DNA of 8,443 nt, from IMG/VR virus record IMGVR_UViG_2663763282_000007. One strand, 5' to 3'. This DNA comes from a virus. Its lineage: Duplodnaviria > Heunggongvirae > Uroviricota > Caudoviricetes. Position numbers and translations under genes: made by a program. This document shows, piece after piece, positions 1 through 8,443 of the stretch. The notes below the pieces were generated by a model, which made no database searches, was not told where the DNA came from, and saw only the letters and a program-made list of their open reading frames with translations. How positions within the stretch are numbered: the first letter of the stretch is position 1; each line of letters starts with the position of its first letter.

Positions 1-54
1 GAAAAATATCATCAGATGGCTGCTTAAAAAAAGAACAAATGGTAGTGTCCGCTA

Positions 55-378
55 TTGCCAGTACACCTCAAACTACTCATTGCCAGATGGGAACTGACCG
101 CAGAACAGGCTGTCGCACAGCAGTTAAAAAATCAGGTGTCAAAAGGAAATCTTATCGATACCGGATTTTGTATTTTTGCCCTTAGTAAGCTGGCGATGGC
201 TTTATCCAGTACGCTTGACTCCATTCCTTTGTCCATGCAACGACAGTTCCCGGATTTAACGCCGCGTCATATTGATCATCTGAAAATCCTTATTGCTAAG
301 GGAGCGAATCAGTGCGCGCGTGCGGGGGATAAATTACCGGATTTACTCGATGAATATATCAGAACAACAACTGAGTAA
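55..378 (+). CDS. Nu1: Terminase small subunit (lambda Nu1-like), C-terminal portion only; 5' part lies upstream of the window and/or is disrupted
   Basis: The translation (...TAEQAVAQQLKNQVSKGNLIDTGFCIFALSKLA...IPLSMQRQFPDLTPRHIDHLK...LPDLLDEYI) aligns with the C-terminal ~95 residues of lambda Nu1 as I recall it. It overlaps the start of the downstream terminase large subunit gene by 29 nt, as in lambda. The open frame begins only after TAG at 43-45 (and TAA at 25-27); the listed start at 55 is a TTG and probably not a real initiation codon. Confidence 0.7.
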   Translation: MPVHLKLLIARWELTAEQAVAQQLKNQVSKGNLIDTGFCIFALSKLAMALSSTLDSIPLSMQRQFPDLTPRHIDHLKILIAKGANQCARAGDKLPDLLDEYIRTTTE

Positions 379-2260
379 TATGATGGTGGCAGTCACTATC
401 GCACTGCAGCCACTGGTCAGGGTATTGCCGGTGACGGCTGTAGAATGGGCCGATCAAAATTATTACCTGCCTAAAGAATCGTCATACGGTGAGGGGGAAT
501 GGAAAACGCTGCAGTTTCAGGTCGCCATCATGAACTGCATGGGCAATGACGAGATTCGTACAGTTAACCTGATTAAATCTGCCCGTGTTGGTTATACAAA
601 AATGGTGCTTGGTGTGATCGGGTATTTTATTGAGCACAAATCCCGCAACACTCTTCTTTTTCAGCCGACGGACTCAGCTGCTGAAGATTTTATGAAGTCT
701 CACGTGGAAGCAACAATTCGTGATGTTCCTTGCCTGAAAAAACTTTCTCCCTGGCTGGGCCGGAAACACCGGGATAATACGCTCACACTGAAGCGTTTTT
801 CCTCTGGTGTGGGGTTCTGGTGTTTGGGTGGTGCTGCTGCCAAAAACTACCGTGAAAAATCTGTCGATGTGGTCTGCTATGACGAACTCTCCTCGTTTGA
901 ACCGGATGTGGAAAAAGAAGGTTCGCCAACACTGCTTGGCGATAAACGTATTGAAGGTTCGGTATGGCCAAAATCCATACGCGGTTCAACGCCAAAAATT
1001 AAAGGCTCCTGTCAGATTGAAAAAGCTGCGAATGAATCTGCGCATTTCATGCGGTTTTATGTCCCTTGCCCTCATTGCGGGGAGGAGCAGTATCTGAAGT
1101 TTGGCGATGATGCGACGTCGTTTGGCCTGAAATGGGAGAAGGGTAAACCGGAAACGGTGTATTACCTGTGTGAACATAATGGCTGCGTGATCCGTCAGTC
1201 TGAACTTGATCAGACCGGGGGGCGCTGGATTTGTGACAATACCGGGATGTGGACGTGTGACGGTCTGACGTTTTTCAGTGCTTCGGGTAATGAAATTCCG
1301 CCGCCGCGCTCCATCACTTTCCATATATGGACGGCGTACAGTCCGTTCACCACCAGGGTACAGATAGTCTGTGACTGGCTGGATGCACTGAAAGATCCCA
1401 ACGGCGTGAAAACTTTTGTGAACACCACGCTGGGCGAGACCTGGGAAGAGGCCGTGGGCGAAAAACTCGATCACCAGGTACTGATGGATAAGGTTGTGCC
1501 TTACACGGCAACGGTGCCTGTCCGGGTGGTTTATCTGACGGCGGGCATTGACTCGCAGCGAAACCGTTTTGAGATGTATGTCTGGGGGTGGGCTCCGGGA
1601 GAGGAAGCCTTTCTGGTGGATAAAATCATCATCATGGGACGTCCTGATGAGGAAGAGACGCTGTTACGTGTGGATGCGGCGATCAATAAAAAATACCGCC
1701 ATGCAGACGGTACCGAAATGACCATTTCCCGTGTCTGCTGGGATATCGGGGGGATCGATGGCGAAATCGTGTATCAGAGGTCAAAAAAACACGGTATTTT
1801 CCGGGTACTGCCGGTAAAAGGTGCCTCTGTCTATGGCAAGCCGGTGATCACCATGCCGAAAACCCGCAATCAGCGGGGTGTGTATCTGTGTGAGGTGGGG
1901 ACGGATACCGCAAAAGAAATTCTCTATGCCCGAATGAAGGCCGATCCCACCCCTGTGAATGAGGCCACATCGTATGCCATCCGCTTTCCTGATAATCCGG
2001 AGATTTTTTCGCAGACAGAGGCACAACAACTGGTGGCGGAGGAACTGGTGGAAAAGTGGGAAAAAGGAAAGATGCGTCTGTTGTGGGATAACAAAAAGCG
2101 GCGTAACGAAGCGCTGGACTGCCTGGTGTATGCCTATGCGGCATTACGTGTGTCCGTGCAACGCTGGCAACTTGATCTGGCTGTGCAGTTGCATCCCGCA
2201 AGGATGCAACTGCACAACCGACCCTTGAAGAACTGGCAGCGAAGCTGTCCGGAGGAGTGA
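350..2260 (+). CDS. A: Terminase large subunit (lambda gpA-like); 3' end frame uncertain
   Basis: ATG at 350 gives MNISEQQ..., matching the lambda gpA N-terminus (MNIS...), followed by long collinear similarity (TAVEWAD.NYYLPKES, KSARVGYTKM, FWCLGG.AAKNYREKSVDV, GDKRIEGSVWPKSIRGSTPK, CPHCGEEQYLKFGD, AYSPFTT, FVNTTLGETWE, YLTAGIDSQ, KGASVYGKP, KKRRNEALDC). The ORF track's start at 293 is a TTG upstream extension with no homology. The last ~26 codons before the TGA at 2258-2260 lose similarity (see findings). Confidence 0.93.
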   Translation: MNISEQQLSNMMVAVTIALQPLVRVLPVTAVEWADQNYYLPKESSYGEGEWKTLQFQVAIMNCMGNDEIRTVNLIKSARVGYTKMVLGVIGYFIEHKSRNTLLFQPTDSAAEDFMKSHVEATIRDVPCLKKLSPWLGRKHRDNTLTLKRFSSGVGFWCLGGAAAKNYREKSVDVVCYDELSSFEPDVEKEGSPTLLGDKRIEGSVWPKSIRGSTPKIKGSCQIEKAANESAHFMRFYVPCPHCGEEQYLKFGDDATSFGLKWEKGKPETVYYLCEHNGCVIRQSELDQTGGRWICDNTGMWTCDGLTFFSASGNEIPPPRSITFHIWTAYSPFTTRVQIVCDWLDALKDPNGVKTFVNTTLGETWEEAVGEKLDHQVLMDKVVPYTATVPVRVVYLTAGIDSQRNRFEMYVWGWAPGEEAFLVDKIIIMGRPDEEETLLRVDAAINKKYRHADGTEMTISRVCWDIGGIDGEIVYQRSKKHGIFRVLPVKGASVYGKPVITMPKTRNQRGVYLCEVGTDTAKEILYARMKADPTPVNEATSYAIRFPDNPEIFSQTEAQQLVAEELVEKWEKGKMRLLWDNKKRRNEALDCLVYAYAALRVSVQRWQLDLAVQLHPARMQLHNRPLKNWQRSCPEE

Positions 2261-2464
2261 ATGGTTACAGTCGCTGAACTGCAGGCGCTGCGTCAGGCGC
2301 GCCTTGATTTATTAACCGGTAAACGGGTTGTGTCGGTACAGAAAGACGGTCGCAGGATCGAATATACGGCAGCGTCCCTGAATGAGCTTAACCGTGCGAT
2401 CAACGATGCGGAGTCGGTTCTGGGTACGACCCGACGCCGCCGACCGCTGGGAGTGAGGTTATGA
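2261..2464 (+). CDS. W: Head-tail joining / head completion protein (lambda gpW-like)
   Basis: The 67-aa product contains LTGKRVVSVQKDGRRIEYTAAS and a C-terminal RRRR motif, matching lambda gpW (68 aa). ATG immediately follows the terminase stop (TGAATG), with GGAGG 5 nt upstream. Its last codons overlap the portal start (ATGA). Confidence 0.9.
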   Translation: MVTVAELQALRQARLDLLTGKRVVSVQKDGRRIEYTAASLNELNRAINDAESVLGTTRRRRPLGVRL

Positions 2465-7543: not shown

Positions 7544-7554
7544 CAGGAGATGTC

Positions 7555-7932
7555 GTGGACGGTTTCGATAATCTGTTTGATGCTGCGCTTGCCGGTGTCA
7601 ATGAAGTCATTCTCCGTGATATGGGGATCAGCGCCGTCATTACGTCCGGAGAACTTGAGGGGACACACCTGACAGGGGTTTTTGATGATCCCGAAAGTAT
7701 TTCTTTTGTTGCCGGGGGGATCCGGCTTGAGGATTCCTCACCGTGCCTGTTTGTGAAAACGGCAGATATATCGCAGTTACGCCGTCAGGATACGTTAACT
7801 ATCGGGGATGATTCTTTCTTTGTGGATCGTATTACTCCGGATGACGGGGGATGCTGTTATATCCGGTTAAGGCGGGGCAGTCCTGCCCCACAGAATAATG
7901 CCAGAATGAGGCGATATGATGAAGGGACTTGA
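7555..7932 (+). CDS. FII: Head-tail joining protein (lambda gpFII-like)
   Basis: A GTG start at 7555 lies 5 nt after AGGAG. The product, (M)DGFDNLFDAA...GVFDDPE.IS...SSP.LFV.T....QLRR.DTLTIG...F.VDR..PDDGG, matches lambda FII (MADFDNLFDAA...). No in-frame ATG is available. The last 17 nt overlap the Z start. Confidence 0.85.
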   Translation: MDGFDNLFDAALAGVNEVILRDMGISAVITSGELEGTHLTGVFDDPESISFVAGGIRLEDSSPCLFVKTADISQLRRQDTLTIGDDSFFVDRITPDDGGCCYIRLRRGSPAPQNNARMRRYDEGT

Positions 7933-8443
7933 GAATGCCATCCGCAATCTGAACAGCCTCGATACCCGCATGGTGCCACAGACCAGCGCATGGGCGGTAA
8001 ACCGTGTGGCGGCAAAGATTGTTTCTGTCGCCACACGGCAGGTTGCGCAGAATACCGTTGCCGGGGATAACCAGGTGAAAGGTATTCCCCTGAAAACGGT
8101 CAGGGAGCGTGTCAGGCTGCTTAAAGCCAGCCCCTCAGGAAAAATGTATGCCCGCATGCGTGTTAACCGGGGTAACCTGCCCGCCATTAAGCTGGGTACC
8201 GCACAGGTCAGACTGGCCCGCTCCCGGCATGGCAGCAACTCACGTCATCGTGGCAGCGTACTGAAAGTGGGGAAATACCTTTTCCGGGATGCGTTTATTC
8301 AGCAACTGGCGAATGGTCGCTGGCATGTGATGCGGCGTATTGACGGCAAAAATCGTTACCCCATTGATGTGGTGAAAATCCCGCTGTCCGGACCGCTGAC
8401 ACAGGCATTTGAAGATGCCCGCGACCGCATCATTGCTGCGGAA
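7916..8443 (+). CDS. Z: Tail completion / tail assembly protein (lambda gpZ-like); 3' end beyond the window
   Basis: ATG at 7916 (or 7919) is preceded by GAGG. The open frame runs to the window end without a stop (176 codons): MMKGLENAIRNLNSL...NRVAAKIVS...IKLG...FIQQLANGRWHVMRRIDGKNRYPIDVVKIP, matching lambda gpZ (KGLE, NRVAS, IKLGNA, FIQQLKNGRWHVMQR..GKNRYPIDVVKIP). It is absent from the ORF track because it has no stop in the window. Confidence 0.85.
   Translation, partial: MMKGLENAIRNLNSLDTRMVPQTSAWAVNRVAAKIVSVATRQVAQNTVAGDNQVKGIPLKTVRERVRLLKASPSGKMYARMRVNRGNLPAIKLGTAQVRLARSRHGSNSRHRGSVLKVGKYLFRDAFIQQLANGRWHVMRRIDGKNRYPIDVVKIPLSGPLTQAFEDARDRIIAAE

What the first reader, a model, noticed from the sequence alone, without database searches (positions are those of the whole stretch)
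1..8443. Several reading-frame lesions in essential packaging genes: defective prophage or error-prone assembly
Within 8.4 kb there are a portal frameshift, a possible terminase 3' frame change, stops in the Nu1 frame and an unresolved gap, while D, E, W, FI, FII and Z look intact. Multiple lesions confined to essential genes are typical of a decaying cryptic prophage. Equally, the homopolymer-associated lesions (T6 in the portal gene, A7 near Nu1) are typical of long-read indel errors. Which explanation holds decides whether this element can still form particles.
Basis: inference. Interest (0 to 1): 0.45.

Follow-up and report, generated by a model that had tools for sequence, protein, structure and literature searches.

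The report
Decayed lambda-like prophage of Shigella flexneri
The broken packaging genes are real, inherited mutations (an IS600 insertion and two frameshifts) in a dead lambda-like prophage that thousands of Shigella flexneri genomes carry, not sequencing errors; only the run of N is an assembly artefact, so the finding is ordinary.

Summary
The window is the Nu1-A-W-B-C/Nu3-D-E-FI-FII-Z head module of a lambda/phage-21-like prophage. Bases 1-5424 are 100% identical to Shigella flexneri 2457T (AE014073.1) and two other assemblies, and 5585-8443 differs from them by one SNP.

Three lesions are real:
1. Bases 1-70 are the right end of IS600, which replaces Nu1 codons 1-67. The "stops" and the "A7" lie inside the IS, not in Nu1.
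2. In gpA, TGGCG became AGTT at 2187-2190. This turns an imperfect inverted repeat into a perfect 14-bp palindrome, the signature of a quasipalindrome template switch. The result is a -1 frameshift that replaces the last 30 residues, the prohead-binding tail.
3. In the portal gene, T5 became T6 at 3449-3454, splitting the gene at Pfam profile position 288.

The exact truncated portal and the exact frameshifted gpA each occur on at least 1000 contigs, including the references 301 and 2457T. Sequencing error is therefore excluded.

The 160-N run replaces 74 nt in every relative. It is an arbitrary-size gap, not a lesion.

The "intact" genes are also decaying. Within S. flexneri there are 15 nonsynonymous and 4 synonymous SNPs, the neutral ratio. 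Eight derived missense changes hit invariant residues.

In the identical genomes, the cos-adjacent sequence and the Nu1 5' end are deleted. The element cannot package DNA. Ordinary and already known.

The parts
1..70 (+). Right end of IS600 (IS3 family). Bases 1-27 are the last codons and the TAA stop of the transposase ORF. The terminal inverted repeat ends ...CACCTCA at base 70.
   Evidence: 100% identical to IS600 in L002 3501-3570 and to L011 7541-7610. The full 1264-bp element is L011 6347-7610, with TG...CA ends. The annotated features under the hits are 'IS3-like element IS600 family transposase'.
71..378 (+). 3' fragment of the small terminase gene Nu1, from codon 68 to the stop. It lacks the N-terminal DNA-binding domain. 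AAC at 71-73 is the target-site copy.
   Evidence: Aligns to L001 4002-4309 of the 510-nt Nu1. Pfam Phage_Nu1 positions 86-163 of 164, E = 5e-19. The 3-bp duplication AAC is seen in L005.
350..2260 (+). Large terminase gene A, 636 aa. The ATPase and nuclease domains are present, but the last 30 ancestral residues are replaced by 24 out-of-frame residues. The ancestral stop is at 2275-2277.
   Evidence: Pfam GpA_ATPase and GpA_nuclease. Tail comparison...LAVLAASRKDATAQPTLEELAAKLSGGVNGYSR* in L005 and L001, against ...LAVQLHPARMQLHNRPLKNWQRSCPEE* in the window. The intact length is 642 aa in L001, phage 21 and PhiR12_1.
2183..2215 (.). Perfect 14-bp inverted repeat, GTGCAGTTGCATCC-cgcaa-GGATGCAACTGCAC. 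It was created by the mutation TGGCG to AGTT at 2187-2190, a quasipalindrome correction that causes the gpA -1 frameshift.
   Evidence: Sequence comparison of the window with L005, L001 and phage 21. The tool finds the inverted repeat in the window (arms 2179-2196 and 2202-2219) but none in L005. The exact complementarity was checked.
2261..2464 (+). Gene W (head-tail joining protein), 67 aa, open.
   Evidence: Pfam gpW positions 3-66 of 66. Identical length in L001.
2461..3516 (+). Portal gene B, N-terminal 351-aa product. The last 22 residues are out of frame.
   Evidence: Pfam Phage_portal_2 positions 2-288 of 354. The exact protein is in 2587 blocks of assemblies and on at least 1000 contigs.
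3449..3454 (+). T6 run. One extra T relative to the T5 of intact relatives gives the +1 frameshift in the portal gene.
   Evidence: Present in all 10 S. flexneri loci fetched.
3455..4054 (+). Portal gene B, C-terminal part, in the shifted frame. It is listed as ORF 3431-4054.
   Evidence: Pfam Phage_portal_2 positions 288-354 of 354. Removing one T gives a 530-aa portal of the same length as in L001 and phage 21.
4044..5635 (+). Gene C/Nu3 (S49 prohead protease and scaffold), interrupted by the N-run. It carries P129S in the DSPGG motif.
   Evidence: Pfam Peptidase_S49. Inserting the 74-nt fill from 2457T gives a 501-aa ORF ending at 5633-5635. P129S.
5425..5584 (.). Assembly gap of 160 N. It stands for 74 nt in all relatives, so its length is arbitrary and puts the flanks out of frame only on paper.
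5672..6019 (+). Gene D (head decoration protein), 115 aa, open. Carries S28C at an invariant residue.
6077..7105 (+). Gene E (major capsid protein), 342 aa, open. Carries D103G at an invariant residue.
7157..7543 (+). Gene FI, 128 aa, open.
   Evidence: Pfam Packaging_FI positions 1-131 of 131.
7555..7932 (+). Gene FII, 125 aa, GTG start, open.
   Evidence: Pfam Phage_attach. The same 125-aa product is called in all S. flexneri loci.
7916..8443 (+). Gene Z, first 176 codons, open to the window end. Has a private SNP at 8384 (Leu instead of Met).

Best explanation
The window is part of a vertically inherited, defective lambda/phage-21-like prophage of Shigella flexneri. Its DNA-packaging machinery was destroyed by three real, independent mutations.

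(1) IS600 inserted into Nu1 at codon 68, with a 3-bp duplication AAC. In the sub-lineage to which the window belongs, an IS600-associated deletion then removed about 3 kb. That stretch included the end of Rz, the cos-adjacent sequence and Nu1 codons 1-67.

(2) One extra T in a T5 run frameshifted the portal gene.

(3) Later, in one sub-lineage, a single template switch within an imperfect inverted repeat replaced TGGCG by AGTT. This is the exact complement of the other arm. It shifted the frame of gpA and removed its C-terminal prohead-binding tail.

With packaging dead, the remaining head genes drift neutrally. The run of N is only an unresolved, arbitrarily sized assembly gap. The element cannot cut or package DNA and cannot build a portal-bearing prohead, so it cannot form infectious particles.

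Shown here: the lesions, their identity across genomes, their order, and the neutral substitution pattern. Inferred: the functional consequences, the template-switch mechanism, and the state of the DNA left of base 1 in this particular assembly.
For: Identity and synteny:
- Pfam assigns every ORF.
- Gene order and gene lengths match phage 21, PhiR12_1 and E. coli FDAARGOS_943.

The lesions are real:
- Window 1-5424 is 100% identical to L004, L006 and L011 (= AE014073.1). 5585-8443 differs from them by one SNP.
- The exact 351-aa portal fragment is indexed in 2587 blocks.
- The 351-aa portal fragment and the 636-aa gpA are each on at least 1000 contigs. The accessions include AAN42336.1, which the source names S. 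flexneri 2a str. 301.

IS600:
-.
- In L005 the junctions read ...GAGAAAC|IS600|AACTACTC against the intact GAGAAACTACTC. This is a simple insertion with the target duplication AAC.
- In the 2457T-type loci the left flank of IS600 is a truncated Rz. The cos-adjacent sequence is absent there.

Quasipalindrome:
-.
- The mechanism is known in E. coli (PMC7202029, abstract seen).

Order of events: gpA is 642 aa in L005, L007, L010, L012 and L013, which still carry IS600 and T6. It is 636 aa in L004, L006 and L011.

Consequences:
- Loss of only the last 5 residues of lambda gpA (Aam42) abolishes prohead binding.
- The N-terminus of TerS carries the winged-helix cosB-binding domain (PMC4856287).

Relaxed selection:
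- 15 nonsynonymous to 4 synonymous SNPs among the S. flexneri loci, against a neutral nonsynonymous fraction of 0.758.
- The window against phage 21 gives pN/pS of 0.07-0.21.
- P(at least 15 of 19) = 4e-4 at omega 0.2.
- Eight derived missense changes fall at residues that are invariant in four relatives (three where one could not be compared).

Context:
- IS600 is one of five IS families expanded in Shigella (PMC7373316).
- S. flexneri phage regions are mostly cryptic (PMC6424224).
Against: - The window starts inside IS600. The deletion of cos and of the Nu1 5' end is therefore inferred from the identical genomes and not seen in this assembly.
- The 10 comparison loci were retrieved through the truncated portal itself. 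They cannot show that every S. flexneri carries T6.
- About 20 contigs encode the repaired T5 portal on the same genetic background. A real revertant sub-lineage is not excluded.
- The sequence under the N-run is unknown for this assembly.
- The SNP sample is small (19 coding SNPs).
- No expression or induction data exist here.
Confidence: 0.93

Rival explanations
1. The lesions are sequencing or assembly errors (homopolymer indels of long-read or pyrosequencing data), and the prophage is intact in the real genome.
For: - The portal lesion sits in a T run.
- The assembly is a draft with an N gap.
- About 20 S. flexneri contigs encode an unbroken portal.
Against: - The same three lesions are base-identical in finished genomes and in more than 1000 contigs from many projects.
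- The Nu1 lesion is a complete 1264-bp IS600 with a target duplication.
- The gpA lesion is a 5-to-4-nt templated replacement and not a homopolymer slip.
- The T5 contigs carry further one-base deletions that are confined to A6, A7, G6 and T6 runs. Their pattern is not tree-like, so the errors lie on that side.
Confidence: 0.02
2. The portal T6 is tolerated because ribosomal +1 slippage or transcriptional slippage on the U/T run restores some full-length portal, so head assembly still works.
For: A +1 slip of tRNA-Phe on CUU-UUU-U would restore exactly the ancestral ...LFPGD... sequence (read from the sequence). Shigella is known to use transcriptional slippage at longer A/T runs (own knowledge, not tested here).
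Against: - Intact relatives have one continuous ORF with T5, so there is no conserved recoding site.
- A run of six is shorter than the runs known to slip efficiently.
- Even with a portal, Nu1, the cos-adjacent sequence and the gpA tail are gone.
- Substitutions are neutral.
Confidence: 0.02
3. The remnant is domesticated. The open D, E, C, FI, FII, Z and tail genes are kept by selection, for example for a satellite, for capsid-like particles, or as a recombination reservoir for incoming lambdoid phages.
For: Nine ORFs in 4.4 kb are still open, and the tail genes downstream are called at full length in most loci. Purifying selection on defective prophages has been reported in general (own knowledge).
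Against: - In the open genes C, D, E, FI and Z the within-species SNPs are 8 nonsynonymous to 1 synonymous. P(at least 8 of 9) = 0.003 at omega 0.2.
- C P129S in DSPGG, D S28C and E D103G hit residues that are invariant in the relatives compared.
- Other loci show more damage, such as a shortened tape-measure gene in L007.
Confidence: 0.04

Closest known systems
The lambdoid prophage remnant annotated in the Shigella flexneri 2a reference genomes 301 and 2457T (AE014073.1, about 714-735 kb)
   Same: Bases 1-5424 are 100% identical, and 5585-8443 differs by 1 SNP. It has the same IS600 junction, the same 636-aa gpA and the same 351-aa + 207-aa portal fragments. The sources already name these 'Head-tail preconnector gp5' and 'terminase large subunit' fragments.
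   Different: The window has a 160-N gap where the references have 74 nt, and one private SNP (8384, Z Met to Leu).
Phage 21 / PhiR12 / lambda head-gene module (functional lambdoid phages)
   Same: Same gene order, Nu1-A-W-B-C/Nu3-D-E-FI-FII-Z. About 91% nucleotide identity to PhiR12_1 and phage 21 over A-W-B-C. Same Pfam families.
   Different: The functional phages have Nu1 of 169 aa or more, gpA of 642 aa, a portal of 530 aa and a cos site. The window has an IS600-truncated Nu1, a frameshifted gpA tail and a split portal.
Quasipalindrome-associated template-switch mutations (E. coli thyA / lacZ reporters; PMC7202029)
   Same: An imperfect inverted repeat becomes perfect through a clustered multi-base change that is the exact complement of the other arm. 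The length changes and a frameshift results.
   Different: This is a natural, fixed event in a prophage gene inferred by comparison. It was not observed in a reporter assay, and the strand and replication context are unknown.
Cryptic lambdoid prophages of E. coli K-12 (DLP12, Rac, Qin) and of other E. coli
   Same: Decay by IS insertion, deletion and frameshift. The closest E. coli relatives decay in parallel: FDAARGOS_943 has a frameshifted FII, an ISEc60 insertion and a lysozyme stop, and strain 88_1577 has IS600 in the lysozyme gene and a stop in the terminase gene.
   Different: The K-12 remnants have lost most structural genes. This one still has a nearly complete head and tail gene set.

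Membership tests
Lambda-like head morphogenesis module | Gene order Nu1-A-W-B-C/Nu3-D-E-FI-FII-Z, with the matching protein families | tested here: met
   Pfam hits for all ten products. Collinear with phage 21 and PhiR12_1.
Functional (particle-forming) lambdoid prophage | Complete small terminase with its N-terminal cosB-binding domain, and a cos site | tested here: not met
   Nu1 starts at codon 68 behind IS600. The cos-adjacent sequence is absent from the identical loci L004, L006 and L011. The DNA left of base 1 in this assembly is not visible.
Functional (particle-forming) lambdoid prophage | Large terminase with its C-terminal prohead-binding tail | tested here: not met
   The last 30 residues are replaced after the -1 shift at 2187-2190. 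Lambda Aam42, which lacks only 5 residues, is defective (PMC4856287).
Functional (particle-forming) lambdoid prophage | Continuous portal ORF | tested here: not met
   T6 splits it at profile position 288.
Functional (particle-forming) lambdoid prophage | Purifying selection on structural genes | tested here: not met
   15 nonsynonymous to 4 synonymous SNPs within S. flexneri, against pN/pS of 0.07-0.21 between phages. The sample is small.
Functional (particle-forming) lambdoid prophage | Induction yields packaged DNA or plaques | not testable with these tools
   Needs mitomycin-C induction of the strain.
IS600 (IS3 family) insertion | Sequence identity to IS600, with terminal TG...CA inverted repeats | tested here: met
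   Window 1-70 is 100% identical to IS600 ends. The full 1264-bp element in L011 starts TGAGGT... and ends ...ACCTCA.
IS600 (IS3 family) insertion | 3-bp target-site duplication | tested here: met
   AAC lies on both sides in L005, L010 and L012. In the 2457T-type loci the left flank is Rz and there is no duplication, the signature of a later deletion. In the window itself the left end lies outside.
Sequencing / assembly indel artefact | The lesion is absent from independent assemblies of the same lineage | tested here: not met
   All three lesions are identical in L004, L006 and L011, and the lesion-bearing proteins are on at least 1000 contigs.
Sequencing / assembly indel artefact | The lesion lies in a homopolymer | tested here: inconclusive
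   True for the portal gene (T6). False for gpA (replacement TGGCG to AGTT) and for Nu1 (IS600).
Quasipalindrome template-switch mutation | The ancestral state is an imperfect inverted repeat, and the mutant bases equal the complement of the opposite arm | tested here: met
   Ancestral GTGC-TGGCG-GCATCC ... GGATGC-AACT-GCAC. Mutant GTGC-AGTT-GCATCC, where AGTT is the reverse complement of AACT.
Quasipalindrome template-switch mutation | Arises in a single replication event | not testable with these tools
   Inferred from the clustering. One assembly (L015) shows TAGTT, which could be a secondary change or an error.
Programmed frameshift / recoding site | A two-ORF arrangement and a slippery site conserved in functional relatives | tested here: not met
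   Relatives have one 530-aa ORF with T5.

The most novel reading that the evidence does not exclude
The portal T-run may toggle in nature. In one S. flexneri sub-lineage (CP037996.1 and related runs, marked by SNP 3252) it may have slipped back from T6 to T5 and reopened the portal ORF. The still-open head and tail genes of this remnant could then serve as a recombination reservoir that rescues or reshapes incoming lambdoid phages, such as Stx phages. In addition, the gpA lesion would be a clean natural example of a quasipalindrome template switch fixed in a pathogen lineage.
Probability: 0.07. Interest if true: 0.35.

Novelty: already known. Interest (0 to 1): 0.12.

Why it matters
The element is truly defective and cannot form particles, and the frameshifts should not be "polished away". 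They are lineage markers of S. flexneri.

It also gives three practical cautions:
- Stops near a gene's start can be the end of an IS element.
- An N-run's length carries no frame information.
- In this case, homopolymer errors in noisy assemblies appear to "repair" a true pseudogene rather than create one.

The quasipalindrome origin of the gpA frameshift is a neat but minor natural example of a known mutational mechanism.

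Tried and rejected
- A scan of genome contigs for the 46-mer around the private SNP at 8384 found only an Escherichia ruysiae Z homologue. It is 87% identical and is not the source of the window. The source assembly remains unidentified.
- The exact lambda/phage 21 cosN 12-mer, GGGCGGCGACCT, is absent even from the intact relative L001. I therefore used the conserved cos-adjacent sequence as the marker.
- Tandem Repeats Finder found nothing in C/Nu3. The repeats there are too diverged and were seen only with the repeat finder.
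- The 2457T genome paper (PMC153260) is not held, and the Sf8401 paper does not discuss this prophage. No paper describing this specific remnant was found.
- My first in-silico repair of the portal gene removed the wrong base, a C at 3448. This was corrected before the look-up.
- I considered a two-step origin of the gpA lesion through the TAGTT form of L015. I rejected it as the main model for two reasons. L015 is nested in the AGTT background and carries other odd insertions. A single intramolecular template switch predicts the AGTT product exactly.
- The large protein searches and the structure prediction were not used, because sequence identity to reference genomes answered the question.

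Full report
**What is in the window.**
ORF listing and translation and Pfam show the head-gene block of a lambda-like phage on the + strand.

| Feature | Coordinates |
|---|---|
| 3' fragment of Nu1 | 73-378 |
| A | 350-2260 |
| W | 2261-2464 |
| B (portal), two pieces | 2461-3516 and 3431-4054 |
| C/Nu3, holds a run of 160 N at 5425-5584 | 4044 to about 5635 |
| D | 5672-6019 |
| E | 6077-7105 |
| FI | 7157-7543 |
| FII | 7555-7932 |
| Start of Z | from 7916 |

The block is collinear with phage 21, PhiR12_1 and a prophage of E. coli FDAARGOS_943. In those, Nu1 is 169-182 aa, gpA 642 aa, the portal 530 aa and C 501 aa.

**Source lineage.**
An exact look-up of the 351-aa portal fragment found it in 2587 blocks of public assemblies. 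Window 1-5424 is 100% identical to three of the fetched loci: AE014073.1 (L011), which I know as S. flexneri 2a 2457T; CP012735.1 (L006); and WACK01000005.1 (L004). Window 5585-8443 differs from all ten loci by a single base, 8384. The 351-aa portal fragment and the 636-aa gpA are each recorded on at least 1000 contigs. The source names include S. flexneri 2a str. 301. The window is therefore a draft copy of a prophage remnant already present in the S. flexneri reference genomes.

**Lesion 1, Nu1.**
Bases 1-70 are in fact the right end of IS600. They are 100% identical to IS600 copies elsewhere. Bases 1-27 are the end of the transposase ORF (EKYHQMAA*), and the element ends ...CACCTCA at base 70. 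Homology to Nu1 starts at Nu1 nucleotide 203. The remaining 101 codons are open and match only positions 86-163 of the 164-position Pfam model.

In L005, L010 and L012 the upstream half of Nu1 is still present. The junctions read GAGAAAC|IS600|AACTACTC against the intact GAGAAACTACTC. This is a simple insertion with a 3-bp duplication, AAC.

In the loci identical to the window (L004, L006, L011), a complete 1264-bp IS600 abuts a truncated Rz gene on its left. The roughly 3 kb that hold the cos-adjacent sequence and Nu1 codons 1-67 are missing. For the window's own genome this deletion is inferred, because the window starts inside the IS.

**Lesion 2, gpA.**
Relative to L005, L001 and phage 21, the window has AGTT where they have TGGCG (window 2187-2190).
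- Ancestral sequence: GTGC-TGGCG-GCATCC cgcaa GGATGC-AACT-GCAC, an imperfect inverted repeat.
- Window sequence: GTGC-AGTT-GCATCC cgcaa GGATGC-AACT-GCAC, a perfect 14-bp palindrome.

The new four bases are the exact reverse complement of the opposite arm. This is what a single intramolecular template switch in a quasipalindrome produces, a mechanism documented in E. coli (PMC7202029). It is not a homopolymer slip.

The net -1 shift replaces the last 30 residues (LAASRKDATAQPTLEELAAKLSGGVNGYSR) with 24 unrelated ones, and the ORF ends at 2260 instead of 2277. In lambda, loss of only the last five gpA residues (Aam42) abolishes docking on the portal (PMC4856287). That this tail has the same role here is inferred by homology.

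The lesion is present in L004, L006, L008, L009 and L011 but absent from L005, L007, L010, L012 and L013. All of those still have IS600 and T6. It is therefore the youngest of the three events.

**Lesion 3, portal.**
The run at 3449-3454 is T6, against T5 in intact relatives. The two ORF pieces meet at profile position 288 of Phage_portal_2. Removing one T restores a 530-aa protein.

That repaired protein does exist on about 20 S. flexneri contigs. Most of those contigs carry additional one-base deletions. All of those additional deletions lie in A6, A7, G6, G4 or T6 runs, and they are shared in a pattern that no tree can explain. The likeliest reading is that noisy data undercalled homopolymers and accidentally "repaired" the gene. 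A true back-slippage in one sub-lineage (shared SNP 3252, including CP037996.1) is not excluded.

**The gap.**
In all ten S. flexneri loci, and in the E. coli and phage relatives, 74 nt lie between the bases that flank the 160 N. With the 2457T fill, C is a 501-aa ORF ending at 5633-5635. With 160 bases the flanks would be out of frame. The N-run is therefore a gap of arbitrary length and not evidence of a lesion. Its true content in this strain is unknown.

**Are the 'intact' genes really intact?**
They are open. But among the eleven S. flexneri copies, the coding SNPs are 15 nonsynonymous to 4 synonymous, and 8 to 1 in C, D, E, FI and Z. This matches the neutral expectation, since 75.8% of sites are nonsynonymous. 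It is unlikely under the constraint seen between functional phages:
- pN/pS is 0.07-0.21 for the window against phage 21.
- P(at least 15 of 19) = 4e-4 at omega 0.2.

Eight derived missense changes of the window's lineage all hit residues that are invariant in L005, L001, L002 (where it could be compared) and phage 21:

| Gene | Derived changes |
|---|---|
| gpA | P55Q, R303C, W336R, V483I |
| Portal | G to S at residue 122 of the 3431-frame ORF |
| C | P129S, in the DSPGG motif |
| D | S28C |
| E | D103G |

The whole block is drifting.

**Mechanism and verdict.**
Without the Nu1 DNA-binding domain, and in the identical genomes without the cos-adjacent sequence, terminase cannot recognise its DNA. 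Without the gpA tail it cannot dock. Without a full portal no packaging-competent prohead forms. The prophage is dead for particle formation.

This fits the known IS expansion and pseudogene accumulation of Shigella (PMC7373316) and the cryptic state of most S. flexneri phage regions (PMC6424224). The concentration of lesions in Nu1, A and B is not significant, because these genes make up 46% of the window.

It is wrong about the nature of the Nu1 lesion and about homopolymer association. Of the two interpretations offered, decay is right and sequencing error is wrong. The finding is ordinary and already in the reference genomes. The only mildly new point is the template-switch origin of the gpA frameshift.

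Noticed in passing
L015 (CP037996.1) 9707-9760; L016-L020 (Logan SRR31555793, SRR16936277, SRR31555834, SRR31555804, SRR31555839): About 20 S. flexneri contigs encode an unbroken T5 portal on the window's genetic background. The Logan contigs among them (L016-L020) also have one-base deletions in A6, A7, G6 and T6 runs (window positions 126, 737, 1217, 1688, 1748, 1783, 2004, 7628), shared in a non-tree-like way. Five of the six fetched share SNP 3252. These are probably homopolymer undercalls, but a real T6-to-T5 reversion is possible.
   Followed up: partly
L015 9731-9735 (equivalent to window 2187-2190): CP037996.1 has GTGC-TAGTT-GCATCC at the gpA quasipalindrome. This in-frame form lies between the ancestral TGGCG and the window's AGTT. 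The same assembly also has +G at window 610 and +CGG at 2432. Whether these are real is unknown.
   Followed up: partly
L009 (CP178302.1), equivalent to window 948 and 1075: This assembly has +A and -T in gpA, which split it into 201-aa and 397-aa pieces. Among the ten loci first fetched only this one has both changes; they recur in the noisy Logan contig L017. They could be further decay or error.
   Followed up: no
L004 2321-3742: One S. flexneri genome has a 473-aa group II intron reverse transcriptase (RVT_1 + GIIM) between the Q antiterminator gene and the holin gene of this prophage. It is absent from L006 and L011.
   Followed up: no
window 5008-5392: Three diverged direct repeats, 141-153 nt apart, lie in the scaffold (Nu3) part of gene C. 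They encode ...EAKGREQLA...M(T/S)VE.AR.(I/V)LA..., and they end just before the N-run. They may be why the assembler broke there.
   Followed up: partly
window 7114-7137: A perfect 7-bp G+C-rich hairpin (CGGGAGC taaat GCTCCCG) followed by TTTTT lies right after the stop of the major capsid gene E. It looks like a terminator but was not listed by the consensus scan.
   Followed up: no
window 8384: A private base, C, gives Leu in Z where all ten S. flexneri loci have A, giving Met. The same local 46-mer with C occurs in an Escherichia ruysiae Z homologue that is 87% identical (L014).
   Followed up: partly
L001 (E. coli FDAARGOS_943) 81-614, 11398-12937; L002 (E. coli 88_1577) 2175-3939, 6152-8080: The closest E. 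coli relatives of this prophage decay independently. FDAARGOS_943 has a lysozyme gene with an internal stop, an FII frameshift (G5 against G6 at window 7714) and an ISEc60 insertion. Strain 88_1577 has IS600 in the lysozyme gene and an internal stop in the terminase gene.
   Followed up: no
L005 3785-7609, L010, L012: In the S. flexneri lineage with intact gpA, the IS600 in Nu1 has itself been split at its position of about 181-184 by a nest of other IS elements about 2.5 kb long. A second, inverted IS600 sits just downstream of Rz.
   Followed up: partly
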